From Amoebophrya sp. A120 (taxonomy: Eukaryota; Protista; Dinoflagellata), in the NCBI GenBank assembly GCA_905178155.1, contig CAJINV010000010.1:1-64000 (forward strand): 64,000 nucleotides of DNA, given 5' to 3'. The translations under genes and the position numbers were made by a program. Of the stretch, positions 640-64,000 are shown in pieces. A model generated the notes under the pieces. That model was not told the origin of the DNA and ran no database searches. It saw only the letters and a list, made by a program, of their open reading frames with translations. The stretch's first letter is position 1, and the number at the start of each line of letters is the position of its first letter.

Positions 640-3600
640 TCAATGTGAAGTGAGTTTATTTGTTCTCCCTTGATACGACAACCCGTCCGACAAGTAGGAC
701 ACAAAGTGCCAAAAAGCGGCATCAAGTGCAAATGTGTCTGGGTCTGGAACCTTGTGACGCAGGTCTGTAAATGGTGTGCACACTGCAATAGAATAGCACG
801 CAGTTGTCAAGCATGACAAGAAGTTTTGAAGCTGCTAGTGTGTTTCGCTTTATTCCGCATGACAAACAGCGTTTCTGCACGACAGGCAACAGGCCTCTTC
901 CCCGCTCATGCCTCACAGATTTGAGAATCATGTTCATACCAGACAAGCAAGACAAACTTGCGTTCACGTTCTTCCAGACCAAGACATATTTCCAATCCAC
1001 CATATCTATGGATGTGTCAGGTTTGAAATCGTCAAAGTTGAAATAGTTTGTCATGCATAAAACAGATACCAGTCGGAAGCCCACTTATCAAGTGGCGCAT
1101 GACAAATTTTCCGAGCACCGGAATCCAATTTGTCATGCTGTTTGGGCACAGAAGACTGCTTTTGTCATGCGAGTTTAGTAGCTCTATTTCAAACCCTAAA
1201 CAGGCTCACAATCGGCTTCACTTGCTATCCTGGCAAGACAGGCACTTCATGCCTTGCATTTTATGCATCACAAACTATTTCAACTTTGTCGATTTCAAAC
1301 CTGACGCTTCCATAATATCCGGTCGGAATATACAAGATGTCGTAGGGCTGGAGATCGACCACAGCTATCAACTGTAAAAATGTCTGGGTCTGGAAACTTG
1401 TGATGCTGAGTGGCGTCTCATAGTGAGGCCACAAGTGCTGGCTCAGCATGACAAATTTCTGAGCTTGTAGGTGTTGCCTATTCTGCATGACAAATTGCGT
1501 CTCCGCATGACAGAAAAATGCGGCTCTTGGGCAACGTGCATGACAGATTTAAGAGTCATGCCAGACAAGCATGACAAACATGCATTCTTCCAGACCCAGA
1601 CATTTTTACATTTGATAACAGCCTCGAATATGTTATCAACACTGACGCTAGTGTCAGATGTTGAGTTGTTCGCGCGAGGATCTACCACCACGGCACTGCT
1701 GTTGCCGTCCTGCTCTGCTACTCTTCGCTGCGCCCTTCGGGCTACGTATTTGGGAAAGAATTCCGCAAGATATCAGAGTGCACAATTCCCCTTGTAATTC
1801 ACCTTGTCTTTCGTACTCAGAATCGTACACCTTTTGGTGGCCGTCGCCGTGTCTGCAACATCACCACAAGTTTATGAGGCCGAAACTCCACGACAATCCG
1901 GTTTTGCATGTGGGTTTATTGTCATGCAGAAGCTGCGTCCTTCGTGTCGTTTCTGTTGCTGCAAGCGCTACACAAATGTCGAAGGAGTGCTGGGGGAGCT
2001 GTGCACCCTCATAAAAGCTCTTCATCCGCCTGCGACGGGTCGAGCCCCGCGACGACCTTGTAGCCGTCATCGTGCAGTTATGCAACACAAATCTACTCGA
2101 GTAGCCGTACACTACAGTACGTGCACAAAAATACAATACATCACAAATTCCAGGAACAACATGGTGCATAGTTGTACCAATTTTGTCATTGTGGATGATC
2201 CCGACTTGCAAAAGAGCCTAGTCATGCGCAAAGAAACCGATAGTTTTCATTCGATGTAGTAAGTGTGGTACGGTACTAAGCTATGTGCAGTTTGCCCGGT
2301 TGATAGCCTGCTGAGCCCGTCAAAATATTCGTCCTGGTCCTGCGAGTAGAGAAAAACCCGCTTCTGTCCGCTCAAATGGAGTAGCAAACCGCCGAAACCG
2401 TGCGTGGAGTTCTCGATGTCCGTGTGCATCAGCGTCGCTTGTATGCAATGCAACCTCATCCCCGCTGCACATGCACAAAACGCATCACAAATTGCACCAA
2501 CTTAGAAGAAGCAACTTGTCATCATGCTGAAGAGGTTGCAAGGAGCAGTTTGTCATGCGGAAGCCACATTTGTACGTGTACGGGAACAAGAAATTTCCTG
2601 CGGATAGTTTTCTCTTTGCTGGCAAGCCAAATCTCGAAAGTTGGAAACACGTCCGGCCGGGCCAGCCACTTGGTAAAGTACTTTGGCGGCATAGTGCGGG
2701 GCTGCAGGTTCAACCCTATCCCGCGTAAAAACGTCACCGCCCAAGACTTGTAAATGAAAAGCCGCATGATGGTGCTCAAGATGCTTCTCATGCGGATATC
2801 CATGAGAAGTGGTTTTGTTTTCGTTTTGTAGTGGTGTTTTGAAATAATTTGTGATGCTAAAAGCAGCATGATAGGCGACGAGATCTGTGACGCTACTGCG
2901 TTAGCTAATGACGACTAGTATTACACTGCGCGCCCAAATTTGTCATGCGCAACAGCCAATGCTTGCTGATTTGTCTAGCCAATAACTTCCCACCTTAACG
3001 AAGGGGAGTTGGTGGCGTAGTTTCTACTCAGGATAAACCTGTTCGGACCGGTAGTGTCGATGTAGGGATTTTGTCGGAAAAGCTTTTTCAGGTACTCCAC
3101 AAACGGCCTCCAGAGCTCCTCCCGATCCGGAATGAAGTGCCGTGCGTTATCTTCGTGAAATCGGTATCAAATGCAAAAATGTAGTTTGGGTCTGGAAACT
3201 TGTGATGCGAGGAAGGAAATAGTGAAAGCCAAAGCAGTGCAATGCGCTGCCGCTGCCCAGCATGACAAGTCTTGCCGTAGTTCTGAGTTGCATACCCCGC
3301 ATGAGAAGCTGCGTCTTTGCATGACAGGCAACCGGAGCTCTTCGCGGCCACGCAATACAGAGCTCAGAGTCATGCCAGACTAGCATGACAAATCTCGCAA
3401 TCTCCCAGACGACCCACGCATATTTGCATTTCCATTTGATAATCGATAGTTCCCACTTCTGATTGTTTCCTTCAAACTGACACCGACGAAATCTTATCCT
3501 ATGCAAAAGCATCGCATTCGTATAAATGCAAGTCTTGCATTACAAATCTTTCTTTTAAGGCAGATCAGCATTACAAATCTTATTTCTCATGCTGAGAAAA

Positions 3601-4618
3601 TTTGTAATGCATTTATACGAGTACGATACTTTTGCAGTTCATAAATCTACGCCCGCACCGGTGTTGTTGTTAGAAGCTGCACCTTCTCCACCACTATCGT
3701 CTGCTGGGCTGCTCCTACCAGTAGATTTTCTGCTTGTAGCAGTAGTTTTCCTCGTCTTGTTGCTTTGATGCCGATGATCGGTTTCAACACCGATGGCGCT
3801 GCCGCTTTCTTCTTCAGATGATGATTCGTGTGGTGAATCCCCGTTCTGGCGGCTCTGTAGTCGTTCCTCCTCGTCTGATGTTCCCGTATCTGATGAAGTC
3901 GCTTCAACCTCTGCCCAGAACAGGGCGTCTTATGCAACACACAAAATTTACTTTTGGTTTTACCGCACAACGACTACACCACGAAAATGCATGACAGGTA
4001 GATATTTGCCAGCGTGAAGATTAAGATTGATTATTTCTATGTGAAAATCGTCATGGAGCTAAAAATTTTCCTGTGGCTCGGAAAAATAGCCCTAGTACGA
4101 TGAAGTCAACATTTGCAGCTCTACGACGTCGTGCGCGGCAAAAATGAATTTCCATTTTCGTTGGATACATCCGAGTAGTGTGTTAGAAGAAAATCCAGAT
4201 CCCAGTCAAACGGCGTGGTACTGTTCAGCATGGTGGTTTGGTTGCTCAACAAGTGGTCATCATTTCTCTTGTTCTCATTCCCAGGCAGTTGATGTCCTCC
4301 TAATTGTCTCCGCCCGAGCTCCGTCATGCGATGCACGGAGGGCACGCCCGGAACCAAATCGGAAAGATCGTCGCAGTTCTCGAAGATCCGGGGGACAGCG
4401 CCTGCGGTTTGTGTTGTTCTGGAAGCTCCTTCTGGCAAGAAAGCTGTTGTGGACGATGCTGGGGCCGCAAATGCGAAGTGGAGAAGCGCCAATAGTGAAG
4501 AGCGACGCTGTACTGGGTGAGGGTGTGGACCAAGAGTGGAGCTCTTCGTTATGGTGCTTGTGTGCGGCATTCGCTCTGGGTCTTGCAAAGAGGTTTGCCG
4601 CCGAATGGTCATTCTCAT
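640..4618 (-). CDS. JmjC/cupin-like (Cupin_8-type) 2-oxoglutarate/Fe(II) oxygenase, multi-exon
   Basis: Removing elements 3931-4167, 3495-3643, 3165-3441, 2717-3035, 2442-2606, 2079-2305, 1771-2013, 1366-1617 and 720-1317, each plus 5 bp, gives one open frame: WDLDFLLTHYSD...FEIWLASKEKTTLMHTD...LLLHLSGQKRVFLYS...DPSQADEEL-EFFPKY...VDLQPYDILYIPT(G/A)FWHFV...TSH*. This contains the HxD...H Fe-binding triad and typical JmjC motifs. Start codon uncertain (4618 or a downstream ATG). Confidence 0.8.
720..1317. mobile_element. family A introner (degenerate) with family H element nested at its terminus
   Basis: TIR core TGCAAATGTGTCTGGGTCTGGAA; flanks agcgg/tccgg. Confidence 0.65.
1007..1314. mobile_element. 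family H introner
   Basis: ~55-bp TIR TATGGATGTGTCAGGTTTGAAATC; DR atatc. Relatives at 25154-25460, 33407-33718, 35920-36226. Confidence 0.9.
1366..1617. mobile_element. family A introner
   Basis: TIR TATCAAnTGTAAAAATGTCTGGGTCTGGAA; DR acagc. About 21 family members in the window. Confidence 0.9.
2717..3035. mobile_element. family C introner
   Basis: TATCC...GTAAAAACG ends; DR aaccc/aacct. Confidence 0.75.
3495..3643. mobile_element. family B introner (~150 bp)
   Basis: TIR TATnnnnTGCAAAAGTATCGTACTCGTATAAATGCA; DR aatct. About 22 members in the window. Confidence 0.9.
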
Positions 4619-4947
4619 TGTCGCGACCAACACTGTTCGTCGTTTTATCTCACTCCTTCTTGATGTCACCACCAGGTAGTGCTGTGAATGACCTCGAGCT
4701 CAGCCTTGCTCTGTCTGTCATGGCAGTCGCCTCGCGAAGACAAAGCTCGAGGAGGCATCACCTTCGCTTAATATCTGACTGTTTTCGTTTGTGCACGATC
4801 TTCTGCTCTCTCTTCTGGCCTTTCTATTTAACGTCAAGAAGCAGCTCATGGAACCGACAGAGTCTTTTCTCCACCACCTCAGCCACTCTCTCTCAGGCGT
4901 CCCACCCACGGCGCAAATCTTCAAAAAAACTCTCTAGCGGGCCACAA

Positions 4948-4979
<32 letters not shown>

Positions 4980-4980
4980 G
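4948..4980. repeat. (GAT)n microsatellite
   Basis: About 11 GAT units. Confidence 0.9.
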
Positions 4981-5146
4981 AACTGTTCCCGCAGAGAAGC
5001 GGCGCCCTGTCATCCTCGTCTCTGATTCAGCTTCATCCCACGACGCAACAACGACTACTCCAAGAGGAGCGCCACGGCTCAGCTTAGGAATTGGAATTAT
5101 TGGAGAGCGAGAGAGGCACAAGGCGGCCAGGAAGGAGCGCCATCTT

Positions 5147-5246
5147 NNNNNNNNNNNNNNNNNNNNNNNNNNNNNNNNNNNNNNNNNNNNNNNNNNNNNN
5201 NNNNNNNNNNNNNNNNNNNNNNNNNNNNNNNNNNNNNNNNNNNNNN
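5147..5246. other. assembly gap (100 N) with ~95 bp duplicated on both sides
   Basis: 5052-5146 is identical to 5247-5341. Confidence 0.9.
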
Positions 5247-6835: not shown

Positions 6836-7636
6836 TTACTGTGTTAACCCCGTGAACTCCACATTTATCAGTCCCTTGCACCCCTTCTTTGCCTTTCCGT
6901 AGTCCACCGCCGCCAACTCTTCGCACCGCGTGTCGTTGTAGGTGTTGTAGCCGCGGTATGACTGTGCACAACTACTCCCCCTCCTCCTCATTTGTATTGC
7001 ATGAACAGCAATACAAACACCCGCACATGTGGAGCCTGTGCATGACAAGTTCATGCGCGTAATGTAGTACTGTTTGGGCCTCCGGAATCTGTCATGCAAG
7101 CAGCACCATACGACAGCGCTTGGATTTGGCATTTTGCATGACAAATCACGAGTGGGACGGGGAATTGTGCACTGTCATACGCAGAGTCGCGTGTCCAGCA
7201 AATTTCGCATCTTGGCGTGGCTATCCGGAATCGCGTTGTGGCACTTGCTATGCATTGCAAATATGTCTGGGTCTGGAAGACTGCAGATGTAGTTTGTAAT
7301 GCAGTTTTTGCATGACGCAGTAGAGTGGCATGCAGGGACCAGCATCGCAGGTTCTTCGAGAGCTCCATGATGCCTACTCCGCATGAGAAATGCGCTCTCA
7401 GCATGTGCATGATGATCAAAGATACACATTACTTGCTGTTCCTGTTTTTCTTTTTGCAAGACAAATTTTCCTGTGATCTGAAATGCGCATCACAAGTTGC
7501 AACCCTCCAGACCCCGACATGATATTTGCACTTGATACTTGCCGATCATGAAGTTACTGGCCGCTTCCCAGGCACCCAATTTGACTTGCTCCAACTCGCC
7601 ACATTTCTGGCAAGTCACGCGAATAGCAACTGACAT
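6836..7636 (-). CDS. small Cys-rich hypothetical protein (~92 aa), 3 exons
   Basis: MSVAIRVTCQKCGELEQ...MIGK|CHNAIP...TRLC|GYNTYNDTRCEE...GLTQ* after removing elements 7249-7537 and 6957-7179 plus 5 bp each; contains a CxxC motif. Confidence 0.6.
6957..7179. mobile_element. family E introner
   Basis: TIR TATGACWGTGCACAA; DR cgcgg/cgcag. Relatives at 1771-2013 and 24480-24699. Confidence 0.85.
7249..7537. mobile_element. family A introner
   Basis: TIRs present; DR cttgc. Confidence 0.9.
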
Positions 7637-8917
7637 GGAACAAATTGAAATGAAAAGGGTTTTCTCGTCGTCACGCGCCTGCGGAGGCTCGTGGGCAATT
7701 CTAGTCAAAACAAACTCGGTAGTTATTTTCAAGGATTTTGGACGATAATGTTGCGCTGCCAAAAAAACAAAACGTCTACTACCGTAGCAAGTGCAAGAGT
7801 AAGGTGTTTGACTTTGATTTGATGTGTATTTTTGCAGGCTGTACTCAATCACCAATGGTTTAGGCTGGACCAAAAATAGAGCTTGTGTCTAGGCCCAGAG
7901 AAGGTATTAAAAGCTGCCCATCAGAGGCAGGGGTGTGCGTTGCTAGCTGTTAGAAGAATAAGTGAGGCCCTGAAACAAGTTTTTAATTCATTGGTTTTGC
8001 AGATTCGTTTTCCCGACGACTTTGAAAAAAATCAACTGGGAGCGACGCGACGACCGAGCCTTACTTTCATCCCTCCTACCCAACAGGAATTGATTGGTTT
8101 TCTGCAAGACTACCTACTCATCGACTTCAGGCCCTCAACGATTGGACTTCAGAAAATAAACATCTTCACCGACCAAGATTAATATTGTTTGCAGCCCTAC
8201 GATTAGCATCGAAGCTTTCTGCTGCCCCAAAAATTTCGAAAAGTAAGGCAAGCAGCCTGAGCCTGCGCTGGCGCTGCACGACGAGAAAGAGACGGCGTTG
8301 TATACATTCGGTCTTTGTAGTTCATCTGTTGTGTACAGTACAAGATTTAGTAGTGGTTCTGTTCTTGTTGTTCGCTTGCGTTCATACCAGGCGTCTTTCT
8401 TTTCTTGCTCCGGCAATGAAGCGGCCCGGTGCTTTTCTATCTTGTTTCATCAGCTGCAAACTCAATCTAAGCGAACTCATCCAGCCATAGGCTTTTGCTT
8501 CTTCGAAAGTCTGTGCAACAAGTTATCTACATCAACAGGTAATATACGCGAAGATGACGTGCATTTTACAACTGGCTGTGCCTACTTTATTTCCATCGAT
8601 GAAATGGAAACTGGTTCTTTTTTCTTCTTCTACGTTCACGATTGTACAAGTAGGCCGTGAAGCTACGATTTTGCTATTCTGGAAACTGAAACTGTTTGTC
8701 TGCTCCTCTTGCGATAATTGCGATAAAACTTAGTTATAATGTGGAAGCAGCAATAACAGGAGTCTTGATGAAGTTGAAACTACTCGTAATGCTGGTACAT
8801 TTTCATTTTCACAAGTGCTATCTTTATCGGTTTTTCGTTCGTCAATCATACAGTTAAGAATTGCATTTGAATACGACTTGTTTCTGATTCTGCATTTCAG
8901 TGCGAATAATGTTAATG

Positions 8918-9923: not shown

Positions 9924-10064
9924 ATGTAAAGTATTCCGGTTGTTCTTGTATGTACTAGAGCAAGATGAACACCGCTAGGTCAGATACCAAATCTACAGCA
10001 GTGATTGAAAAAATCTTCTCCACCGTCCCTGCCCCCGCGGACAGTAAGAACTTCCACCACTTTC

Positions 10065-13000
10065 CTAAATCCGTATCGCCTTTCTCACCGCCCGCTTTAG
10101 CCTTCCCAAGTAGATATGGATTGCAAAAATGTCTGGGTCTGGAAGGTTGGAACTTGTAATGCTAGCTTTCCACACCTAGAAAATCTGTATTGCATAACCA
10201 ACAAAAGTCGCAGCCTCTTTTGTCATGCAAGAACGCAGTTTCTCATGCGGATTGCCTATGAGAAAGCGTTTTGGGAAGTTGTCATGCCGGACTGCATTCG
10301 GAAGTCTTTTCATCATGCACATTTTAGCATCACAAGTTTCCAGACCCAGACATTTTTGCATTTCATAGTAGACGCCGAGATTGATCGTATCCGTGGAAAT
10401 TTTGTCGACCGAGAACGTCAGGAACGCGGCGATATCAAATGCAAAAGTGTCTGGGTCTGGAACTAAGCAACTTATCATGCTAAATCTGAATGATGTAAAA
10501 ATCTGTGTTGCGTGCTTACCAAAAGCTGTCCACTTTTGACCTAATCGAGCGGCAGTTTCTCATGCAGGATAGGCATGATGGAACTCATCTCACAGAATCT
10601 GTCATGCTAAGTCCTACGTGCCAGACCTCAGGGGTCATGGAAAACCTGCATGACAAGTCTGGCACTCTTCCAGACCCAGACATTTTTGCATTTGATAGGC
10701 GAAGAACACTTGGACAGACGTCGTGATCAAAGACTTCCTATGCATTGCAAAAGTATCGTACTCGTATAAATGCAAGTCTCGCACTACAAATCTGTTCCCG
10801 AAGGCAAATCAGCATTACAAATTTCCTTTCTCATGCTGAGAACATTTGTCATGCGATCTATACTAGTACGTATGGATCCACTATTCGCCAAACATGCGTA
10901 TTTGCATTTGCTCGAAATATTGAAAAATCCTCAATAGAGATTGATGTTTCCGGGTATGAGACGCCACCTATATGAAAATACGCCGCACCAAATCCCCTCC
11001 CCACCTCAGCGCCAACGAAGCTCACCACTCCCCTACTTCTTTCGCTGTATTCCCATTCTCTAGTACAGCTACAAAAAGATCAATCGACATCGGTTCACTT
11101 CTGGCTCTTTCCCACATCGTTGACACGGCCGCGAAGGCACAGTCATTCGTTGAGATATCAGCTCCCTGCGCGTCTCTATCAAAGTCGGAAGACAATCGTC
11201 TGGATCTCTAATCCGAAAAATGAAAACAGTCAACCCCGGAAGGGTTCCAAAAATGAAATCAAGGAGCCATCTCTGGCCTGGTGAGGTAACACAGAAAAAC
11301 CCAAGCAACTGCCACACACACCATTGCGCGCGGGCAGTCGGAATATGACGTGGGGGGCCTACCCCTACGACAACCGGGCCACGAAGAAGCGAGCCCGAAG
11401 GCGGAACCGCGGCGCGGAGGTTAATTTGTTTTGGGGGAGTTCGCATTCTTTTTGCGATTTTCAGCTGAGGGGCAACATGTTGCGAAAATTTTATTTCGTG
11501 ATAAAGCGCGCTCAGAAAATTAAATTTAGCAGGTTGGGTGTTTTGACCCAACCTGCGGCGCAGGTTGGGTCAAAACACCCAACCTGCTAAATTTAATTTT
11601 CTGAGCGCGCTTTTTCCCGTATCTGGCAGCGGCCGAGGAGGTTCGGCCGCTGCCAGAAACGGACCACATGACGAAAAGACCTTGGCTGTTCGGAACAGCC
11701 AAGGTGTTAGCTTTCATCATGTTGTCCGTCGTTTCCGTCTAGCTGAAAAGGTCGCCAGCAATTTCCTGTCCAAAATTAGAGCCCACATCCCCACCATCGA
11801 GGGACGCTTTGGCTTTCAATATATGCGCGTTCGAACTCGGGACGCTTCAATGCGGAGGCTTTCGTCTTTATCAACTCCTTCAAAGAAGAAGCTTGCAAAT
11901 TCCACCACTCCTTCTGCTGTTTTTGAGTCGTTTCACCGGCAGGATCGACGAGTTGGATAATATCGCAAGAAAAAGGTGCTACAGTAACGCATTGTGTTGC
12001 AGGCCAAGCAAGACAGACAAGCTGCGTCATGCCGGATATACCTAGCGAGCCTCGTTTCATAGGTGTTTTCCCGTAGGATTTCTGCATTACAGGTTTTGTT
12101 TTCTCTCTCATGCAGAGAAATTTGCGCTGCTGAATTCACTAGAAGCGTGTAACTGTATACACTTTTTTCGTGGGATAGATAATAGTGGCGATTCTATACT
12201 TATTGAGGAATTTTCAATAAACCGACCAAATCCAAATGCGCAGGTTTGGGTATATCGTGGGTCCCTACTAGTACGTTACTTTTGCAGTTCATACTTCCCT
12301 GGCCCGAAGGACTGCAGCACCAAGGCGATGAAGAGAAACAGCAACGCGAAGATCAACGAGTAGAACTATCCCACGAAAAAACTGTTTCACTGTGATGATT
12401 TTGCAAGATCTGCATCACAAGTTTGTTACACATGACAAAGAAAACTTGGCATGCGTGCTCCCTAAGAGAAAACACAGCTAAAAATCCAATGTCTTGCATG
12501 TGTAGCAAGACAAACGCATTTGCGTTCCGTTCTATGCATCACAAGTTTACAGCTAAGCAGTTTTTTCTCACGATAAGAACAGCAGAGTCAGCAATATCTG
12601 GTCCGTTTCCAGCCCGAGGTCTCGCATCTATCCGGAGTAAAGATCATGTCCCCGCACCAGAGTCAACATGGGAAATCTGCTAGACAAATCCATAAGCTTT
12701 GGCTGTTTCGCATGACAAATTTGGACGCGTAGGGTAGTGCTGTTTGAGCTAGCTAAGCAGCATTACAGATCTAGTATCTCATGCTGATTGGCGCATTACA
12801 GATTTCCAAGCCGCATTAGAAAATGCTTCTCATGGGGCTCCGCATGAGAAACATTTTAAGCATGCAGAGTAGCATGACAACTATGGTGTGGGTACGTTTT
12901 TACACAGGATAGCATCAACTGTTTCTTCAGTCGCTCCTTCGTCACAATTAGCAGCGCCATTTGGAATTCATGGAGTTTCAGCCGTTCCTCCTTCTCCACT

Positions 13001-47600: not shown

Positions 47601-47904
47601 AGAACTTTATTCGTCCTAGTAAGCCAGATCTATTTAGTACGACTGGTCGTGGTCTCCGTTCTTGTGAGACGCCGAGTCAGAGGCAGAGCGGCACAAGGAA
47701 ATAACATCGTCCTCGTGAACCTCTTGTCTGGTTCTGGATCATCTGAGCCCGAGTTGTTGCAAGATGCTCAGTGAGGTAGATCATGACAACGAGGACTACA
47801 CACCGACTTGTTGTGTACGTCTATGTGTTCTGCCGTTCGTCCGCTTCCCTTTCTGATGGTGGAACAACTGGAATGACACGTCCTGTCCGTGGTGTCTATG
47901 AGTT

Positions 47905-49404: not shown

Positions 49405-49593
49405 GGTTTTGATACTGTCTTCTGATACATATACTGTATTTTTAATGCTCTTCTGGCTTCACGACCCCGTTCTTTGTTCCTTGTGCAGCTGCAGAGCCGC
49501 CGCGTAAGCATGAACTCTAAAAACTCACTGCAGCTCTTGATTTGTAGTCTGAAAGACCTTCTACAGCTGCACCACTTGCTGGTGGTTCGACAG

Positions 49594-52293: not shown

Positions 52294-53584
52294 TCACAAC
52301 CCTGGCGGTGGTCCCGACACAGGCGTAGCATGCGGCTCTACCATGATATTACCTGCTGCCGCTCTACTATGATTTCGGACGGCCAGATAATACCTATACC
52401 AATCTCCACCAATCGTTTCCAATTGGTACTCTCGCCCGGTATCGCGATAAGTGAACTCGAGGGCCCTTTCCCATTTTCGCCCTACTTCTAATGGCTGCTG
52501 TACGTGGTCTACTTCTGCACTGCCCGCTGCTCCAGGCCTGGCCAGCGCCAGCTCTTCACCACCAAGCGTGAGGCGCAAGAGATCCCTGCTGCCCTGAGGA
52601 GCCTCCTCCACCTGTAACGCAGCGCGGGTCCAGCGCCACGTCCGTCCCTGGGTCCGGAAATAAGGTTCATCAAGAAGTGCATAATGCGGCACACTAGTAC
52701 TTCTGCAGCTTAAGTCACGAACGATTTCGCATCCGCTCCGTTCCATGGTGGGCGTTAGGCTGGATTCCAGGTCAAGCAAATCGGCGTACATAGAAGGTGA
52801 AGGATCAACGAAAAGAGAAACATCCAAAACCTTCCCCGGGGTGCTTAGCCGTTCGTCGCTATTTTTCTGCAGGTGAAACAGAAACTGAAGCAGCTTCGTC
52901 CACTGCGTACCGACCTCGTTTTCGAAGTTCTTTTGGTAAAGAACGCTTTCGACGAGAACACGATCGAAGTCCTGGGCCTTCACGCTATTCCACGTAACAG
53001 CGCGACCCGCTCCTGGCACAGAAGTTGTCGGGGCTAGGACGTGCACAAGCGGAACCAGGGGACGCCCAGCACCATGGTCACTACGATACCCCCAATCGTG
53101 CGAGATCACACCAACCCGCTTGGTAAGCTTTGCTTTCCTGTTCTCTCTCTTTTCCGAAAAAAATAACGCTACCAGCCCCGGCGACCGCGTCAAGTTCTTG
53201 TAGAGAAGCGGCAACGAGTTGAAGTTGTACCGTATTAAGTTCTCTTCATCCTCATCCACTCCCGACAGCACCCGCCCTGCTGCTTCAGCTTGTTTCGCCC
53301 TAGCAGTAGCAACGTCCTGCGCGACGTGTTTTGCGGCAAAAGCCGCCCCAGCTTCTTCCGCGGTCGCGTACGTGCGGCGACCTCCAGGACGAGTCCCAGG
53401 ACGCGAGGCCGCAGAAGCGAGCGCCTTGGCCTTCGCGGCGGCTTCTGCTCTTCGCTGTTGTTCTTCTACTTTTTCCACGCGAGCACGACGGACCTCCAGC
53501 TCCTGCAGCTTGTCCTTTTGGGCTTTAACACTGCTCTCCGACCGTCTTTTCTTTTGGATCTCGAAACTGTTGGTGCGAAAGGGT
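52294..53584 (-). CDS. hypothetical protein (long terminal exon; 5' end unresolved)
   Basis: 394-aa ORF extendable upstream (KAQKDKLQELEV) to element 53585-53721; its 3' part is duplicated at 42166-42546. Confidence 0.55.
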
Positions 53585-54385
53585 TATGCTGTGCAAAAAT
53601 ATTGTGTTGATGATTTGGCGTTTTTTGCATGACAGATTCAAACCAAAACGCTTGATCATGACCTTGCGGTCCGAAAATGCAAAAAGAGAAAAACACCAAC
53701 ACAATATGTTTGCAAAGCATAAGCGCGACACTCCCGAACGCGTTCCTCCTAGATGTAGATGTTGATTTTTCCCGCTGCTGGAGCACCGGGCTTTTCGACT
53801 TCTTGATGAGATGGAGATGATTTTCTAGCGGCTTAAGAGGAACACGCTGGAGAATAATCTGGGGCGTTGCAATTTCCGACACACCGGGAGCCATCACGGA
53901 GAGGGGCGAAGCCGTCCCTGTCTTCCGGTAAATGCTTTCCGAAGAGGGTACGAAAAAGACCGAAGTTGTACTTGCTGGAAAACTGGCGGATGTGCTCGCA
54001 CGTCTCGCTGTGCGTACAGCTGGTGGCCTTGTGTTGGGCATCTTCACTCTGCTTTACTTCAAACCAGGCTAACTCTCTAGCGACCACGTGTAACCTATGT
54101 GACATCTGTGTACAAAGACCCTCACCTCACTGCTCTCACTTCGCTCAAACTCTCTTGACCCCAAAAAAAACAATTTTGGCTGGACATTAGACAAAGCGAA
54201 GGCCTTACGAAGGACTGCGAGGCGTAGCTACCTTTGCAGGTAGTTCCACGGCCTACAGCGTGTGCTCGACTACCTTGGTGATATGTTACAAAGGTCCCCA
54301 ACTTTTCTGAATGTGACGCGATGATGTACAACGCAATGCGGTTGCAGCTTGTCCTTTTGGGCTTTAATAAATTAATTTCGTACTA

Positions 54386-56300
54386 CTAGAGCTCGCCGTT
54401 GGCTTCTGCTTCCAACTGGTCCAAGTACTCTGCTTATGGATTGCAAAAATGTCTGGGTCTGGAAGGATGCAACTTGTGATGCTGCATTTGGATTCTACAA
54501 AAATCTGTATTGCATGAACAGCAAAAGAGTTGCAGTTTTTGCGACGGCGAGAGGGCATTTCTCATGCGGTATAGGCATCAGGAAGCCCTCAAAAAATCTG
54601 TGATGCTAGGGTATGCATCACAGACATCAGGGTTCATGCCAAAGCTGCATCGCAAATCTCTGCATCCTTCCAGACCCAGACATTTTTACATTTGATACTG
54701 CTGGAAAGCGGTCCCAAACTTCAGCATTGTGTGTATCCTGTGCAAAAGTATCGTATTCGTATAAATGCAAGTCTTGCATTACAAATTTTTTTCTCAAGGT
54801 AAATCCGCATTACAAATCTTAATTGAATTCTCATGCTGGGGGAACAATTTGTCATGCATTTATACGAGTACGATACTTTTGCACTTCATAGTGTGCTTCA
54901 CGCAGCTATCAATTGCAAATATCCCTGGATGATGTCTGGAAGATTCTAAGGCTTGTCACGCACGTTCTTTTGCATGAGCCATGACGTCCTCTGTGATGCA
55001 TGCCCTAGCATTACAGATTTTTTATTTTTCAGGGCTTCCTGATGTTGCCTATTCCGCATGACAAAAAATACCCTCTCCGCGACGTAGCAAAAATTCCATT
55101 CCCTTTGCTGCGGATGCAAAAATACAGTTTTTTTTGGAATCCAAACGCACCTTCCGATTGACACATCTAAACCCAGATCGATGTTTGCAATTCCATACCT
55201 TTTCCCCCTTGCCAAAACGCTGCGCATCAGTTTGCCTTGCTCCAAAACACTAGGGTCCAAGGGTGCACTATCCCACGAAAGAACTGTTTGTTCACTGTGA
55301 TGATTTTGCAAGATCTGCATCACAAGTTTCATCTTACACATGACACAGAAATAAATTTGCCATGCGCGGCACTTCCAAAGGGAAAACAGCGTCAAAGAGT
55401 CGCGGTCTTGCAGGTGGAGCAAGACAAATAGTTCTGTGATGTTGCCTTCTGTGCATCACAAGTTCACATTGAAACAGTTTTTTCTTGCGATATGCACCGC
55501 CCGCGTAAGTCCTCCGCTTCTCACGTTATCCTGTGCAAAAGTATCGTACTCGTATATTAAATTACATTCATGCACATCTCTTTCTAAGCCTGAAACAGCA
55601 TTACAAATTCCAGTTCTGTTCTTGCCGGAATTTGTGATGCAATTTGTACTAATACGATGCTTTTGCATTGCATACACGTAAGCGCGCAACAAAATTTGTC
55701 CAGAGCGGCGGCGCCGTCATCGTAGTGTCTATCTGGATGTAGGGAAGCAGCAGCGAGTCCTTCTCTTCCTCATACAAAGTTTTGGTGCGGTTTTCTATCC
55801 TGAGTAAAAACATCCCCACCCCATAGTTGTCATGCAGATTTGCGACTACAGGAAGATTTATAATGCGCATCTCCATGAGAGGCATTTCCAATCGCGTTTT
55901 GGAATTTGTAATGCTGTAAACAGGATAAACAGATGGATTTGCGATCCGGTTGTCCTTGCTAACATGCACTACACCTACACTACGGACTGCAACTTCTCAT
56001 GCGTGGCTTCCAAAGCTTGTGGATTTGTCTTGCTAGGACCCCAACTTGACTATGGGGTGGGGACGTTTTTACATATGATATTTTCGGTTCTCTGCCCATC
56101 CAGGGTTTGTACCTCCAGCTCCTGCAGCTTGTCCTTTTGGGCTTTAATAAATAGCTCTTCATCGTCTGCCTCAGTCTTGCCAATAGCCCTGTTGAGGACA
56201 AAATTCTTCTTCTTGTTTCCTCGCGCTGGGCTGGTACTAGAAGAGGCCGCTCCGGACGTCGGTGGTAAGTCTGCGCCTCGAGCAACTTGTTGCTCACCAT
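54386..56300 (-). CDS. hypothetical protein, about 7 exons
   Basis: Frame is kept across 55796-56080, 55527-55674, 55269-55492, 54734-54890 and 54435-54697. The junction at degenerate element 54907-55197 does not follow the 5-bp rule. Shares KAQKDKLQELEV with the 52294 gene. Confidence 0.45.
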
Positions 56301-59004
56301 AAAAAAGATTGTACACTGCAAACAGCTGCAGAATCCTGCTGCTGCACTTGGAATTTCGGTGCACGACGAAAAACATTTTTGATGCAAAATTCAATCACCT
56401 CGACCTTGTAGCAAATGAATTCTGATGAAAATGTTGTTAATTTTTTGTGCAAGAACTACCTGAGTAAACTAAAACTACGTAGAGAAAGAACGCTGTTCTT
56501 ACACTAATCAGTACCCAGCAGGCTGTGAATGAAAAAATGGCAATGGTGCCTGAGCAAGATCATATGTGAGGATCATGATGGTGAGGTGCGATTGTTGAAA
56601 AAATCAAATATGTCATGCAAAACGACAGAGATATAAATTTTAGTTTGATGTTAAATCTAGACCGATATGGACAATACAGAAGAAAATAAAGAAACGACGA
56701 AAGAGAGAGAGATGGGTCGGAAAGGACAACACTTCTGCCCCTACCGTCCAAAGCATATCTGCCACGCTGCTAGGGAAAGCAGCCCTAGGTGGTGGATAAT
56801 GCAATGGTGCTCGCTTAAAACTATGATCCCTGTGCACAGGGCGGGTAGGGGCGCCGGCTCCACCGTCCAAGTGCTCATAGTTTTAACGTGTTGTTAGAGA
56901 TAGAGAAGAGAGGAAGCCGAAACAACACCACACAAAACAAACCAGAGAAGAAAGGATCATCAGAATAATGCAGTTACCGATTGATGACCGACGATTAGCG
57001 TAAGAGCTGGATAATGAAAGAGAGATAGCACGAGCGAGGATACGATGGGAGTACGAATGTCACGAGATCGATCAGGACGAAACTCACGGGCGAGGAATCA
57101 ATGGCGAATACGAATGTCACGAAAAACGATGTCTACGTTCAGCATGATGAGGAGTTCAACGATAAACGATGTCTACGTACAGCTTGGTGAGGAGTGCAAC
57201 GAAGAGGCGACCCGAGCGAAATGATGATGTGAGAAAGCGACGAAGAATTAGCGACGTAGGAACGTAGCGTGACTATAAGCGATGAAAGAAATCTAAGATA
57301 CGAAACTATTCTCTAATAGATCAACCGAAGGATACCGAGGCGCTCATGATCTCTATCGAAAGTGATCTTGGGGACGAACAAACACATAACAAGCAAAATG
57401 TACAAACGCATGCCGGAGAACTGTGCTGTTGATTCAATTTAATTTTTGCATCGAATGAAAAACAAAAAGAATGGATACCGGAGTGCCATGACAGCAGATC
57501 ACCCATAATTTTGCATGATAATTGTCATTCATCATCGTTCATTCGCATTCAATCTAGTATGTTGTATGCATGAGAAACAAATAAAGATAAGAAGTAATTT
57601 TTATACACACTGTCCCGGGATTGGTGAGGGTCATTTTGTTTGATAGTAATGTTGGTTTTCTCGTCAGACTAGCACGCAACGAACCATTACAACAAGCTTC
57701 AACATCAAGATCCGTTTGTATGAATCACACCGAATGTTTGCATATGAACACTGTTCCGAAAATGAAGAGATGACCATACCGATGAAGATGAACAACCGAT
57801 TGCATATACGAGTCAACCGAATTCTTCTCTTGTTATCATTTGCAGAACGAGACTCAAGCGCACGCAACAACAACTTCTGTTTTTCATTTCTGTTTTGTTT
57901 GTAGATCATCTAGAGTCTCCGTCATTCTTAACTACTAACTTCTTAACTATTAATTTATGCGTCTTTTGTCGACAGGGACAGTCGGCATGTAGTTTTGGTT
58001 CGGAACAGCATTTTATTTAAAACTCTGATACAGGAAAGGACGACGTCCTCGGCCTTTGTCAGTTCCGGCGGGGCAAGCGGGTTTTATTGCATTTTCATTG
58101 TTTCATCTTGCTCTGACCGCGTTGCGAGTTCTTTCGCCCTCGAGGACCGTCGCAAGAAAAAGCGGTGGCGTGGCGGTAAAAACAACAAGCACGGCAGGCA
58201 ATCTCACCTGTGCCCTTCACCTTCTCGCGTGCTGTTCGCCGCGTTACTTCTAGACTTTGCACAATATGAAATCAACAGCAGAAAGCACGACCGAAGCGTG
58301 ATGCGCAGTCGCGTCGTGCTGTCGCGAATATTTGGTTTAAAGTTTTTTGCAGCTGTGGCAGTGTCAGCCAAAAAAAGTAAAAAAGAGGAAAAAATAGCTC
58401 GTTCCGCTCTGCCTGTTACACCGATGAAAAGGAGGAGGACTTCGACTATAGAATTCAAACTAGTACCACCACGGCGCTCGTTTAAGTACCTTCATTTCTG
58501 AAGGGACGAACCCTCTAAACACCATCCACATCGGAGGTCAACCGTTCGGGATGAGATAGCACGAAGAGAAAAAACGATGATCGGGGCCGCTTAATTGGGA
58601 AGCGGTGTGAGGAGCGCCACTTGATGTACTAGTTGTCGTCGTGTTCAGATAATACAAAAGGGTAGTCCACCCACACCTTGTTCAGTTTTTACATAGTGAC
58701 AGTCAGGCTTATTTCTGACACAACTGGTTTGATTCTGATTATCTTGATTCGATTTTGGTATTGGTTTCTTAGCTCATAAAAAAGTTGAAATCTTCACGTA
58801 GTTGTTTGTCCATTTCGTTATTTCATTTGTGAGTGATACTTTCGTTGACCATCCAGCACAAAAATTTACATCACGTAAGAATTGTTCGCAAGTACTAGCC
58901 CATTTGTCTTTTATTCACAGTGTTGGTGAAAATAATCGATAAAAATAAATATGAAGTAAACCTAAAGCTGTGCAAGACGAGAACAACAACAACACAGGCC
59001 ACCT

Positions 59005-62000
59005 CTACGGCCCCGCCCCTCCGCTTGTCGGACTGGGTGTTCTAGAAGAAGTCGAGCTTGAATTCGGTATCAACTGTAAAATTGTCTGGGTCTGGAAGAT
59101 TCTGACAGTTGGTTGGTTGGTTGGATAGCGCCTGTCGCCGGTGCAGGTCCCGCCCTCCATCGATTGCGATCCGGAGTAGCCGGAACACAAGGCCCTAGTG
59201 GCACAATCGATCGACGAAGCCCTTTATAACCAGGTCACGGACATCCGGCTGCCGTGGAGTCATTCGCGGGCCAGGCAACGTCTAGGAGCTACGGATTAGG
59301 GATCTTGATGGGCGAGACAGGTCACAGTCATCCGCCTGCCCATCGAAGACGAGCCAGGTCACAGTCATCCAGCTGCGTTCACAGTACGAGCCAGGTCACA
59401 GTCATCCAGCTGACTGCATAAGAACGTCCCCGGCAGCAATCATCGAAGTGAACCCATGGGAAGTGTCGTGAAATGCCAAAGACAGGAATCCCCTGACATA
59501 CGCCAACAAAACCCAATAACCACATGTGACGACGTGGAGAAAGGGTAGACCCCGACTGGCCTACGAGTAGGCCTGATTGCTCCGCTGCGTGGTATTTTCC
59601 CGGGCAAATTTATTTAAAGTGAACCCCGGGCCATTATTACTATCTATTATATTCATGCGAAAAAAGAGGTCTACAGAGGGTAGACGAGAGGTGGCCGAGA
59701 GGTCAAAAAGAGGTCAAAAGAGGTCAAAAAGAGGTCGACAGAGGTGGAGAGGTGGTGCGGGAGGTCATTCGGGAGGGTGGCCAAGAGGTGGCGCGGGTAT
59801 AGCGAGCCGAACCGTTCACCCTAAAGCCGCGCCTATAGGGACCAGAGGGGGCCGAGAGGGTGCCAAGAGGGTAAGCGAGAGGGGGACAGAGGTGCCGAGA
59901 GGTTGCGCGAATAAGGGCGAACCTCTCGCGCACCCTCCTGGCCACCTCTCGGCCACCTCTGTAGACCTCTAACGGCGAGTATAGCCGGACTATTAGCAAC
60001 ACCTCTCGGGAGAGGTAAAAGAGAGGGTCTGCGAGAGGGTACAAACAACCCGAATCCGCCCGGTACAGGGCCGATCTTCTGGGGGATTTTGCATCGCTCG
60101 GGCCCGCACCCTCTCGCGCCACCCTTTCGCGCCACCCTCTCGCGCACCCTCTCGCGCACCCTCTCGCGCCACCCTCTCGCGCACCCTCTCGCGCCACCCT
60201 CTCGCGCCACCCTCTCGCGCACCCTCTCGCGCCACCCTCTCGCGCTACCCTCTTGCGCCAGCAGTTCCGTCGGCCGGGAAGCCATTGGGCGGGGGCGGGA
60301 GAGTGATCAACACAGGGCAGCGCGGCCCCCCTTGTGCTTCGGCACTTACGCCGAGGCGACTTCTCTTTGCCCCCAAGCTTCGCTGCAGCTGCTCCCTGCG
60401 CATAGCGCCTAAAGGCGCGGGAAGCGCGCAGGAGACCCTGCGGGGTTGCATGGCGCAAAACGGCGACAGTATGTTCCTCGGGGGGTGGGGGGCTGTCGCG
60501 CTGTGTCCAAAGCTCTGGCGCGGCGTCCCGATCCGCAAATAGTCCTGCCCTGCCACAACAGCCTAGCGCCCCGGCGTCTGCCGGGGCATGGCTGGTAGTT
60601 GTCACGCACGTTTTGCATGAGCCATGATGTCCGTGATGCATACCCTAGCAATACAGATTTTTTGAGGGCTTCTTGATGCCTATTCCGCGTGACAAATGCC
60701 GTCTCAGCGCAGCAAAAATTGCATTCCCTTTGCTACTCACGCAATGCAGATTTTTTTGGAATCCAAACGCAGCATCACAAGTTGCATTCTTCCAGACCCA
60801 GACATTTTTGCACTTGGTATTCGGTCCTGGCAACCCACCAGCTTCTACCGCATGATCCTCACCCGGTGGCTATCCTGAGTAAAAACGTACCCACACCAGA
60901 GTTGTAATGCAGATTTGCAAAGACAGAAAGACTTATAATGCGCATCCCCATGAGAGCCATTTCCAATCGTGTTTTGGAATTTGTGATGCTGTGAACAGGA
61001 TGAGCAGATGGATCTGTGATGCGGGTGCACTTGCTAACCTGCACTACAATGCATAGTGCAACTTGTCATGCGTGACTCACAAAACTCCTAGGTTTGTGTT
61101 GCAAAATCCCCATCCTGAATCTGGTGTGGGTACGTTTTTACTGAGGATAGTGGCCCACTAGCGTCCCGCAAGTACCTGCCGGGCAGCAGATTGCGATCGT
61201 GCGACGGCCGAATGTCCGGACTGCCACTGCGGCTCCGCGTAGTTTTCGGAAAGGTCGCGGTTCCGGTACTGTTCCTCCTCACTGCAGAATTTGCGATGTT
61301 GCTATCAAATGCAAATATGTTGTAATCTGGGTCTGGGAAGTTTTGATTCAAGTCTGTGAATGTTGACAAGAGCACTGCAATTGTACCCAGCTAAGGCTGT
61401 TGCTGGCAAGAAATTTTTGGGATGCTACGTGTTTCGTTTTCTGCGTGACCAATTTCGTTTTTGCATGACAGGCAAGACCTGCCCCTTTCCCTGCCCGTGA
61501 AACTGCACAGATTTAAGAGTCATACCAGGCACGCATGACAAACTCAAACTTGCATGACATACGTACTTACTCGAGACCCAGAGAACATATTTGCAATGCG
61601 TAGTCGCCCGCAGATGACGAAGAGGACGCCGAAGACGATGCGGAATATCAAATGCAAAAGCGTCTGGGTCTGGAAGAGTGCATGCTTGTCATGCTTGTCT
61701 GGCATGACTCTTAAATCTGTCATGCACGTTACCCAAGAGCCCCATTTTGCTGTCATGCAGAAACGCAGTCTGCCATGCAGAATAGGCAACACCTAGAAGC
61801 TCAAAAGCTTGTCATGCTGAGCCGGCACTTGTGGCCTCTTCATGATACGCCACCCAGCATCACAAGTTTCCAGAACCAGACATTTTTACAATCCATACGG
61901 AAAGCAGGTTGGCAATGGATCCCGGTTGTACTTTCAACACGTCGTCTGCTGGTGCAGTTCTACTTTGGCCGATCATGTCGTCCGCAAAAGTAACCCCTTT

Positions 62001-63850
62001 ATTGGTGTTCGACGTGGATGTTGCAAAAGAACTTGCGGAAGAGGAGGAGTTGGAGGGTGCTGCTGCAACCGCTGGTACAACTCCTGGTAGTGGGGAATAA
62101 GGCAGAGCTTTTTTCGTCCAGGTGTCAGAACCGGCTTGCAGGAATGATAAAGCTGTAGATCCTCCGCTGCTGATATTCGCCGGGCCGGTTTTGTTACTCC
62201 TTGAATTTCCTGTCCCCGTTTCGGAAGGTTTCGGCTCCCGGACCGGCGGGTTGCGGTCCAAGACCCGTTCCACATCCAGCCGATACTGCTCCATCTCCGC
62301 TTCCCGTTCCGCTTGGGTCTTGTAATTCAGGTAGTTGAAGGCTGCCCGGGCATCCGGCTGAACATAGTCGGTCTCGACATGATTCGTCATGCTCTGCTTT
62401 GATCCACCGACAGCTTCACTGTTCCTGATTTCCATCCACCGGGTTATCCCACGAAAAAAGTGTTACAACAGTTACTACACACTTGTAGTCAATTCAGCAA
62501 CACAAATTTCTCTGCATGAGAGAGAAAACTTGTAATGCAGAAATCCTACGGGAAAACACCTATGAAACGAGGCTCATATGCATATCCGGCATGTCAGAGC
62601 TTGGGTGTCTTGCTTGGCCTGCAACACAATGTGTAAGAACTGTAACACTTTTTTCCTGTGATACGAGTTGCTGCGGAATTACTAGGCGGCGACTTGCTGC
62701 CGGAGGTTGCGCGGGGGCGAGAAGAGGAGGAGGAAGAGGATGCTCGTCCTGCATTGTTGTTCATCAACATTCCACCAGCTCCAGACGAGGCACTACTGTA
62801 TTGGCCGGGCCGGTAGTTAAAAGCATTTCTGGTGCCCGAGGAACTTGAAGCGATTTCAGCAGGGACAGCAACCGCGTCCACAGTGTCAAACAGGGACGCT
62901 TTGGTCAGCAGGGAAGTCACATCCTTCTCCCACTCTTTGCTGTTGGACCGGATGGACTTGTACGCCAGCCCAGTGTAACTCCCCCCATCCCCCTCGGAAA
63001 TCCCGTAGGTAGAGAGGAACACGTTGTTCGCGTGGCCACTCAGATCCGCCTGATTCGTATTTGTGGTTGTTGTTCCAACACTTGCATTTGTGATGGATTT
63101 CTTGCTGTTGGTCAGCGGGATGAACCGTTTCTCGATCGGCTGGTGGTTTATCGACCGCGGACTGGCGATTTTCAATCTGTCCCCCGGGTTGATTTTCGTT
63201 CTAGGGGACAAAGGCGAGCTCTGCCCGGGCCCGGACGCGGAGAAGCTGTAACTGCCATAGGGGAGGATCTGCGACGCCTCGCCGCCAAGTGGCGTTGGGT
63301 TATATTGGAACGCATTGCTATTTGTAGTGGTTCCGGTGAACGAGGTATCCCATGTAAAAACATCCCCAGCTGCCCAGAGTTGTCATGCGGATTTGCAAGC
63401 ACGAGAGCATTTGCAATGCGAATCCCCATGAGAGGCATGATTTCCCATTGTGTTTTAGAACTTGTAATGCTGTAAACAGGATGAGGAGACGGATTTGTCA
63501 TGCGGCTTCCCTTGCTATGCTGCACTTCAGTACAGCCTGCAACTTGTCATGCGTGACTCCCAAAACTTCAAGGTTTGTGTTTCAGAATCCCCATCTTGTC
63601 TCTGGGGTGGGGATGTTTTTACTTAGGATACGGGGCACCGCTGATGGAACTGTTCCCAAGCAACTTTCGATTTGTGCCGTACAAATCTCCGAGTAGGTCC
63701 GGATGGCGAAACTTCTCAACCAGCTGCGAGAGCCAGGTGAGGATGTTTGTCGCGGTTGACAAGGACGTCTGTGGCGCCGCACCGGAGACCCCCGCAGCAA
63801 GCCTTAACCGGTGCGACAACTCGTCCGCGACGTAACCCAAGTAGGTTCTC
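59005..63850 (-). CDS. 3' part of a Ser/Gly/Pro-rich hypothetical protein; continues beyond the window
   Basis: Continuous frame across 63346-63630, 62445-62663, 61646-61897, 61303-61602, 60871-61149 and 59068-60819, ending SPTSGGAGP*. Confidence 0.65.
59111..59636 (-). mobile_element. possible non-autonomous retroposon with (AACC)n tail
   Basis: Begins (GGTT)3 on +; apparent agtt duplication (59107-59110 / 60597-60600); internal 16-bp repeats. Confidence 0.4.
59637..60595 (+). mobile_element. non-autonomous Helitron-like element, copy 3
   Basis: a|TTACTATCTATT...GCCCCGGC-gtct-GCCGGGGC atgg CTGG|t. Confidence 0.7.
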
Positions 63851-64000
63851 TATCCATAGGAAATAATTTCCTGTGCACGTCGTACAAATACAAATTATGC
63901 GGCTTCTGCATGACAAAACCTACCTTCCATCCTATATTAGCATGACAAGTGGCATGTTCTAAATGATAGCAAAGTTTGTGATGCATTTTGTCCGTGTACG
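63851..64000. mobile_element. family D introner truncated by the window end
   Basis: TATCCATAGGAAATAATTTCCTG start with TGTnATGC motifs. Confidence 0.7.

What the first reader, a model, noticed from the sequence alone, without database searches (positions are those of the whole stretch)
720..64000. Pervasive non-GT-AG 'transposon-intron' system: ~86 TAT...ATA inverted-repeat elements with 5-bp direct repeats whose removal restores ORFs
Seen: about 12 sequence families share TAT/ATA termini, 15-55 bp TIRs and a 5-bp flanking DR. Almost all sit inside coding sequence, none has GT-AG ends, and families occur in both orientations relative to the gene (family D 28085 vs 49132/63851). Removing element plus one DR keeps the frame at essentially every junction checked by hand; the one clear exception is 54907. 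Established: IR/DR-bearing non-canonical introner elements have been reported in Amoebophrya, and their removal mechanism is not resolved to my knowledge. Inference: removal is guided by the TIR stem and DR instead of U1/U2 base-pairing, implying an uncharacterised splicing machinery (or IES-like DNA excision).
Basis: partly seen in the sequence, partly recalled or inferred. Interest (0 to 1): 0.92.

Follow-up and report, generated by a model that had tools for sequence, protein, structure and literature searches.

The report
Transposon-like introns of Amoebophrya parasite
About 86 short transposon-like inserts with matching inverted ends and a 5-base flanking duplication break up the genes here, and long reading frames reappear when they are removed; they match an intron class already described in the parasitic plankton Amoebophrya and are likely cut out of the RNA by their ends instead of by the usual GT-AG signals.

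Summary
In detail: 84 top-level elements, one nested and one cut by the window end, with TAT...ATA inverted ends and a 5-bp duplication. Removing each element plus 5 nt joins 49 of them into one 4,603-codon ORF. The TAT-N7-AAA ends, 5-bp repeat and sizes match the published introner elements of Amoebophrya A120 (PMC7789003), so the system is already known; the organism is inferred, not matched by sequence. A DNA run carries the elements at full depth; three contigs of a probable RNA run stop exactly at element borders. Best reading: non-autonomous DNA transposons spliced from pre-mRNA by a relaxed spliceosome reading the terminal repeat; a non-spliceosomal enzyme is the main rival. The cut position is still open. 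The scan noted similar hairpin-bounded introns on other genomes (unchecked notes).

The parts
10068..37748 (-). Giant gene, 4,603 open codons after removal of 49 elements (+5 nt each); protein of unknown family
   Evidence: Elements: 10115-10367, 10433-10697, 10739-12293, 12367-12575, 12629-12911, 13065-13302, 13637-13898, 13976-14126, 14908-15046, 15237-15455, 15796-15966, 16356-16620, 16749-16919, 18440-19617, 20052-20247, 20410-20714, 20764-20909, 21919-22181, 23080-23357, 23409-23569, 23807-23951, 23988-24266, 24480-24699, 24749-24897, 25154-25460, 25845-26008, 26928-27078, 27156-27304, 27370-27532, 27621-27773, 28085-28228, 28288-28430, 28568-28716, 28792-29073, 29298-29455, 30301-30567, 30646-30916, 31199-31458, 32190-33364, 33407-33718, 33835-34114, 34168-34327, 34974-35088, 35138-35431, 35575-35864, 35920-36226, 36319-36468, 37297-37414, 37483-37646 (the last lies before the first Met). 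No Pfam or protein hit for exons.
643..4699 (-). Two restored ORFs (136 and 415 codons) crossing 10 elements
   Evidence: Elements 720-1004, 1007-1314, 1366-1617, 1771-2013, 2079-2286, 2442-2606, 2717-3035, 3165-3441, 3495-3643, 3931-4167; 1007 sits in the terminus and repeat of 720; the right boundary of 2079 is uncertain
6839..7888 (-). Restored ORF, 176 codons, 2 elements
   Evidence: 6957-7179, 7249-7537
40710..41725 (-). Restored ORF, 278 codons, 1 element
   Evidence: 41156-41332
42555..45455 (-). Restored ORF, 520 codons, 6 elements
   Evidence: 42843-42958, 43032-43249, 43374-43526, 43610-43871, 44054-44342, 44399-44671
47908..49458 (-). Restored ORF, 360 codons, 3 elements
   Evidence: 48137-48281, 48432-48539, 49132-49334
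52297..53824 (-). Restored ORF, 462 codons, 1 element
   Evidence: 53585-53721
54367..56394 (-). Restored ORF, 210 codons, 6 elements, with an exon of only 11 nt between 54890 and 54907
   Evidence: 54435-54697, 54734-54890, 54907-55197, 55269-55492, 55527-55674, 55796-56080
59008..63849 (-). Restored ORF, 575 codons, 6 elements, continuing past a truncated element at the window end
   Evidence: 59068-60819, 60871-61149, 61303-61602, 61646-61897, 62445-62663, 63346-63630; truncated 63851-64000
20052..20247 (.). Element with a decayed repeat (2 of 5 match) that is missing from a contig of the probable RNA run; at least 3 nt of the upstream repeat copy are kept
   Evidence: record 9 (20248-20409, no other letters, 4,691 further letters not continuing into the element)
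54907..55197 (-).
   Evidence: use of these sites is inferred
10869..12265 (.). 1.4-kb long-TIR insert (about 9-11 bp duplication, Mutator-like by recalled criteria) inside element 10739; itself holds element 11961-12177
18563..19585 (+). Helitron-like insert inside element 18440 (5' TC, 3' hairpin + CTGG, no duplication; criteria recalled)
32233..33096 (+). Second Helitron-like copy inside element 32190
   Evidence: 72-88% identity to the other copies
59643..60595 (+). Third Helitron-like copy inside element 59068, next to a further ~530-bp insert (59103-59635)

Best explanation
These are 86 inverted-repeat elements with 5-bp flanking duplications whose removal restores long ORFs; they match the introner elements of Amoebophrya A120, are likely non-autonomous DNA transposons, and are likely spliced out of pre-mRNA by a relaxed spliceosome that reads the terminal repeat and cuts at fixed distances from it. 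Shown: anatomy, ORF restoration, both orientations in one gene, dispensable interior, imperfect repeats, presence in DNA. Inferred, origin (about 85%): a transposase acting in trans makes a 5-nt staggered cut; the shared decamer GCAT[GTC]ACAAA and the TAT-N7-AAA end would be its binding sites. Inferred, removal (about 75%): RNA level; the arms pair (positions 9-16 onward), and the two cuts take the element plus exactly 5 nt, whatever those 5 nt are (a ruler, not a homology search). Inferred, catalysis (about 55% overall): U2/U6/U5 core with lost G+1 and AG requirements; with the cut 1 nt before TAT the intron starts N-UAU[G/C], a donor lacking only its G, and the invariant first A of the 3' ATA would lie 7 nt before the 3' cut as a candidate branch point.
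For: Motif: 72 of 83 elements have TAT-N7-AAA on at least one arm, 51 on both, the motif published for A120; a 5-bp repeat is drawn in its Fig. S19 legend; A120 family lengths in Dataset sd07 of PMC12130899 (106-319 bp classes, 19 of 58 rows seen plus 2) match. RNA level: three of 8 listed pieces of run X4 (RNA is the tool's guess) stop to the base at four element borders (20248, 20409, 20910, 22182) with 17 to 4,691 letters left over; first-bin depth 20.1 fits exons only (18.1 expected); a fully spliced record 9 would end at 9927, 141 nt past the ORF end. All 8 listed pieces of DNA-like run X1 run into or through elements at depth 36-46. End-guided: families 0-3 occur in both orientations inside the one ORF (3:3, 12:3, 2:2, 4:1); four elements carry 0.9-1.5 kb foreign inserts; ends pair in the MFE fold in 69 of 79 elements. 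Spliceosome: A120 keeps 83 of 89 spliceosomal proteins and U2, U4, U5, U6 but no detected U1, whereas a canonical-intron strain has U1; a tunicate precedent exists (abstract). Terminal changes are strand-asymmetric: the 5' TA and the 3' first A never change in 83 of 84 elements (Fisher p 0.03, 0.06 with element 2079, post hoc). Arms pair poorly at positions 4-8 (25-57 of 83), more like a read motif than a pure stem.
Against: No joined read was seen: 967 joints were not displayed, and 2 RNA read runs (X6, X7) gave no test. X4 is another sample and its type is a guess. No branch-point or pyrimidine asymmetry between strands (27 vs 27 of 83; 0.51 vs 0.51), no significant sense bias in pairing, and an 11-nt exon fit a non-spliceosomal enzyme at least as well. 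The register is bracketed at one element only (at least 3 upstream nt kept); the published xT-starting sites may reflect aligner sliding (scoring rule recalled). Repeat mismatches are more often synonymous than one fixed cut predicts (16 of 28 versus 0.30-0.45; p 0.002-0.13). No transposase and no relative of any exon was found, so species and mobiliser are not shown.
Confidence: 0.55

Rival explanations
1. Same elements, same RNA-level ruler, but a second, non-spliceosomal machine (endonuclease plus ligase, or a domesticated transposase that binds the decamers) cuts at the base of the terminal stem, as proposed for Euglena nonconventional introns; either repeat copy may end up in the mRNA.
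For: Full strand symmetry of decamer (139 vs 130), folding (69 vs 71 of 79) and branch-like motifs; 11-nt exon; excess of synonymous repeat mismatches; Euglena introns need paired motifs at fixed spacer lengths and leave as circles (review passage).
Against: Weak strand asymmetry of terminal changes; U1 is undetected although 35% of A120 introns are canonical, which points to a changed spliceosome; no candidate enzyme is in the window.
Confidence: 0.3
2. IES-like programmed excision from DNA before transcription.
For: Transposon anatomy, both orientations, precise loss of element plus one duplication; X4 could be DNA.
Against: 8 of 8 listed X1 pieces cross exon-element borders at the depth of unique sequence, three spanning whole elements. 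Contigs drop rare variants and cover one sample, so a stage-limited process is not excluded.
Confidence: 0.05
3. Ordinary GT/GC-AG splicing at sites in or near the ends.
For: 7 of 83 elements read G|TAT...ATA|G in frame (3 on the antisense control), 54907 the best case; the paper reports IR/DR in 15% of canonical A120 introns.
Against: Only 5 of 83 at equal-length registers; frame-keeping GT..AG within 12 nt in 30 sense versus 25 antisense of 83, i.e. near chance; X4 pieces stop at the element borders. True for a minority at most.
Confidence: 0.04
4. The elements stay in the mRNA; reverse transcriptase skips the hairpin between the repeats (false introns) and ribosomes hop over it, since any 5-nt repeat duplicates one whole codon (mechanism recalled from translational bypassing).
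For: Hairpin plus direct repeat is the recalled signature of template switching; 9 of 14 differing duplicated codons are synonymous.
Against: 5 of 43 duplicated codons differ in amino acid; 20052 is missing from X4 with only 2 of 5 matches; 49 hops of up to 1.55 kb in one gene.
Confidence: 0.03

Closest known systems
Introner elements (IEs) of Amoebophrya sp. A120 (Farhat et al. 2021, PMC7789003; sections 10-12, 16, 25, passages and supplement passages read)
   Same: TAT + 7 variable nt + AAA inverted ends, 3-5 nt direct repeats (5 bp in Fig. S19), non-canonical boundaries, about 240 nt mean length, many families, co-oriented genes without known function, mechanism unknown.
   Different: No difference in kind. 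Not found in the parts read: orientation relative to the gene, the shared internal decamer, dispensable repeat identity, nested Helitron-like inserts. The paper leaves the border position 'unknown' (Fig. 3 legend).
A120 introner families in Gozashti et al. 2025 (PMC12130899; passages and 21 of 58 dataset rows read)
   Same: Mostly 'TIR DNA, unknown' families of 106-320 bp; an integrase-like TIR family (38) is a candidate mobiliser type.
   Different: Automated TSD calls vary from 2 to 5 nt and splice-site tallies are mixed; here the duplication is uniformly 5 nt.
Nonconventional introns of Euglena (PMC12501133; abstract, sections 8 and 12 read)
   Same: Paired terminal motifs, MITE-like origin, interior length unimportant, cut set by spacer length.
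   Different: Motif N3-CDG...CH'G-N5-6 and purine at exon start; here TAT...ATA with spacers summing to 5 and clear repeat families.
Ginger2/TDD-4/5 and IS481-like integrase-type DNA transposons (PMC2836005; passages read)
   Same: TIRs; 5-bp TSD in TDD-4 and TDD-5.
   Different: Their termini are TGTNR; these are TAT[C/G]; no transposase here.
Non-canonical transposon-derived introns of Fritillaria (PMC13326754; abstract read)
   Same: Most introns escape GT-AG; MITE-like origin reported in a review passage.
   Different: Spliceosomal removal is supported there and boundaries are constrained; U1 is present.

Membership tests
Amoebophrya A120 introner elements | Inverted repeat of 8-20 nt or more joining both intron ends | tested here: met
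Amoebophrya A120 introner elements | IR begins TAT, 7 variable nt, then AAA | tested here: met
   72 of 83 on one arm, 51 on both; definition
Amoebophrya A120 introner elements | Direct repeat of 3-5 nt at the boundaries | tested here: met
   5 nt, 52 of 84 perfect
Amoebophrya A120 introner elements | Repeated families | tested here: met
   10 multi-copy families; element depth in X1 thousands of times that of exons (no copy number)
Amoebophrya A120 introner elements | Removed from transcripts at non-GT-AG sites | tested here: inconclusive
   ORF restoration and three X4 contigs ending at borders; no joined read displayed; run type guessed
Amoebophrya A120 introner elements | Window belongs to Amoebophrya A120 or its lineage | not testable with these tools
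   no genome held; no protein relatives; inferred from motif and sizes
Non-autonomous TIR DNA transposon (MITE) | TIR, target-site duplication, short, no coding capacity | tested here: met
   80 of 84 are 108-319 bp; 70 of 83 have stops in all three sense frames
Non-autonomous TIR DNA transposon (MITE) | Cognate transposase or empty site in a relative | not testable with these tools
   none among 30 window ORFs; genome not held
Ginger2/TDD | TGTNR termini | tested here: not met
   TAT[C/G]
U2-type GT-AG intron | GT/GC and AG boundaries | tested here: not met
   5 of 83 at equal length, 7 of 83 at L+2
U2-type GT-AG intron | Strand-specific branch point and pyrimidine tract | tested here: not met
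   27 vs 27 of 83; 0.51 vs 0.51; the symmetric TIR limits this test
U2-type GT-AG intron | Lariat intermediate | not testable with these tools
   needs RNA experiments
Euglena nonconventional intron | N3-CDG ... CH'G-N5-6 signature | tested here: not met
   end logos
Euglena nonconventional intron | Cut at fixed spacer from paired motif | tested here: inconclusive
   total spacer 5 kept despite decayed repeats; register bracketed at one element
Ciliate IES | Absent from the transcribed DNA (recalled) | tested here: not met
   X1 contigs carry the elements at full depth; one sample only

The most novel reading that the evidence does not exclude
A second splicing machine, possibly a domesticated transposase that binds the shared GCAT[GTC]ACAAA decamers and TAT-N7-AAA ends on RNA, removes any insert of this transposon class in either orientation with a 5-nt ruler and may keep either repeat copy, making transposition into coding exons harmless and turning the elements into shelters for other transposons.
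Probability: 0.3. Interest if true: 0.85.

Novelty: already known. Interest (0 to 1): 0.45.

Why it matters
The class is published but its removal is an open question. This window narrows it: the signal lies in the ends, not in the interior, the orientation or the repeat sequence. It also supplies natural test sites: imperfect repeats with mismatches at each of the five positions fix the cut to the base from ordinary cDNA reads. Either answer matters: a spliceosome that needs neither G+1 nor AG nor U1, or a second eukaryotic mRNA-splicing enzyme. All 83 top-level elements tested lie in restored ORFs and none in 16.7 kb outside them (partly circular), which suggests a transposon that targets coding exons.

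Tried and rejected
No whole genome was held, so snRNAs, Prp8, ligases and transposases could not be surveyed. The run search listed no holder on record as RNA (no evidence either way). RNA read runs X6 (3 partial reads) and X7 (0) gave no test. Pfam on 30 ORFs: two sub-threshold hits only. Three protein searches found nothing at E 0.001, so annotated junction residues could not be read; the first two covered only proteins up to 2,000 aa. Atlas search: no hit above 0.8. Rfam: none at gathering score. G-U versus A-C asymmetry between arms: 69 vs 49, p 0.08; 32 vs 18 elements, p 0.06; terminal pairing sense versus antisense not significant at three flank lengths. Faster repeat decay in GT-AG-capable elements: 4 of 7 vs 26 of 75, p 0.25. 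Mismatches avoid the duplicated codon: no, 16 of 24 inside. Rejected: candidate 59798-59983 (chance), repeat-guided removal as a requirement, Ginger membership. Partition-function folding timed out and was replaced by MFE on 79 elements under 400 nt. Searches for a published mechanism, orientation analysis or decamer (in-paper 31, 49) found none; Roy et al. 2023 (Curr Biol) and the figures of Farhat's supplement were not seen and may bear on this.
Full report
Observation. The elements are real and far above chance. Without asking for a repeat, 32 of 129 TAT...ATA inverted pairs have a perfect 5-nt flanking repeat. A scored scan kept 61 strong elements against 0-1 per shuffle. With degenerate and nested copies the total is 84 top-level elements, one nested and one truncated. 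The first 83 fill 36% of the window. Tests below marked 'of 83' were run before the 84th (13065) was found.

Genes. All restored ORFs are on the minus strand. Removing element plus 5 nt gives one ORF of 4,603 codons across 49 elements; on the 43-element version, random removal lengths reached at most 1,536 codons in 200 trials, a 1-nt shift broke 41 of 43 junctions and retention of a single element broke 39 of 43. I corrected three boundaries after seeing frame breaks; each correction follows the visible repeat. The elements must therefore be removed before translation. Exons match nothing in Pfam, the protein collection or the Atlas.

Identity. Both arms read TAT[C/G]-N6-AAA; 72 of 83 carry TAT-N7-AAA on at least one arm. 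Farhat et al. 2021 describe exactly this for the introner elements of Amoebophrya A120, with 3-5 nt direct repeats, 29,850 copies and RNA-seq support. Family sizes in a 2025 dataset agree. The organism is inferred from this match only. The system is already known; its removal mechanism and exact borders are stated to be unknown, and five searches found no later solution.

DNA or RNA. On 19901-38000, all 8 listed pieces of run X1 cross exon-element borders at depth 36-46, three spanning whole elements, so most DNA molecules of that sample carry them. Of 8 listed pieces of run X4 (guessed RNA, another sample), five lie inside exons and three stop to the base at element borders with letters left over. 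Record 9 covers exon 20248-20409 only; the depth of its bin fits exons alone, and its length, if fully spliced over 15 more elements, ends 141 nt past the ORF. The joints themselves were not displayed (967 hidden), X4 also holds unspliced element ends from other loci, and X6 and X7 gave no test. This supports RNA-level removal without proving it.

What guides removal. (1) Not the interior: four elements hold 0.9-1.5 kb of other transposons, three of them one Helitron-like family. (2) Not orientation: four families sit both ways round inside the single ORF (no inconsistent edge), and family D does so across genes. (3) Not repeat identity: 32 of 84 repeats are imperfect, with mismatches at all five positions, yet the frame is kept, and 20052 is missing from X4 with 2 of 5 matches. 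There at least three letters of the upstream copy are kept, which excludes a cut that would use ATA+N as acceptor, for this one element. (4) Not ordinary sites: frame-keeping GT..AG pairs near the ends are at chance (30 sense, 25 antisense of 83). The exception 54907 reads AG|GTATGG...TTGATAG in frame, one of 7 such elements, and may have become a canonical intron. What remains is the terminal repeat and a fixed 5-nt distance, the logic shown experimentally for Euglena introns.

Which enzyme. Orientation symmetry cannot separate stem from sequence, since the repeat shows the same motif at each end either way. For a relaxed spliceosome: a cut 1 nt before TAT gives N-UAU[G/C], a donor without its G (donor consensus recalled); arms pair poorly at positions 4-8; terminal changes spare the 5' TA and the first A of the 3' ATA (p 0.03-0.06, post hoc); A120 keeps most of the spliceosome but no detected U1. 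For a separate enzyme: no strand asymmetry in branch-like motifs, pyrimidines, folding or the decamer, an 11-nt exon, and more synonymous repeat mismatches than a single fixed cut predicts (16 of 28), a weak hint that either copy can reach the mRNA. I put 0.55 on the first and 0.30 on the second. The published predominant A120 sites all have T in second place, which fits the first, but aligner sliding within the repeat can give such a pattern (rule recalled).

Origin. A sequence-free 5-bp duplication, inverted ends and both orientations indicate DNA transposition by an enzyme in trans. The decamer GCAT[GTC]ACAAA occurs at 17.4 per kb inside and 0.41 per kb outside, in 81 of 83 elements and in all ten multi-copy families, on both strands; orphan copies of it led to the 84th element. 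It is likely a binding site of one shared mobiliser or removal factor; I did not find it in the parts of the papers read. TDD-type Ginger elements make 5-bp duplications but end in TGT, so the superfamily stays open. All 83 top-level elements lie in restored ORFs and none in 16.7 kb outside.

Verdict. A clean, dense example of a published and still unexplained intron system. Novelty: already known. Interest 0.45, for the constraints on mechanism and the ready list of sites that would fix the cut. Earlier scan notes of similar introns on other genomes were not checked and add no support; none exists for this genome.

Noticed in passing
window 8918-9923: 1-kb intergenic foldback element, 91-nt arms 99% complementary, apparent 3-bp ATG duplication; the giant gene's inferred 3' end lies right beside it.
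   Followed up: partly
window 46090-47600: 1.5-kb intergenic element with 44-nt arms, TAC...GTA termini and a perfect 5-bp AGAAC duplication: same duplication size as the introners, different termini, outside ORFs; possibly a relative of the mobiliser family.
   Followed up: partly
window 49594-50583: 990-bp inverted-repeat element starting TTA plus two purines, like the motif published for strain A25 introners, or a TA-duplication element.
   Followed up: no
window 18563-19585, 32233-33096, 59643-60595: All three copies of a Helitron-like family lie inside introners, antisense to the gene; introners look like safe landing sites.
   Followed up: partly
window 11961-12177: An introner inside a transposon inside an introner: three levels of nesting, and the only copy not directly in exon sequence.
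   Followed up: partly
window 720-1314: Element 1007 has inserted into the terminus and repeat of element 720, so the two must be removed in order or together.
   Followed up: partly
window 53500-56150: A ~26-nt stretch recurs three times (near 56145, 54365, 53525), once just after the stop of the 210-codon ORF; perhaps a partial gene duplication.
   Followed up: no
window 10068-37748: A 4,600-residue protein of no recognised family whose 49 introns all belong to this class; no canonical intron is needed to keep the frame.
   Followed up: partly
window 5147-5246 region: Assembly gap flanked by a duplicated ~90-nt stretch, probably an overlap artefact; 411 N in the window in all.
   Followed up: no
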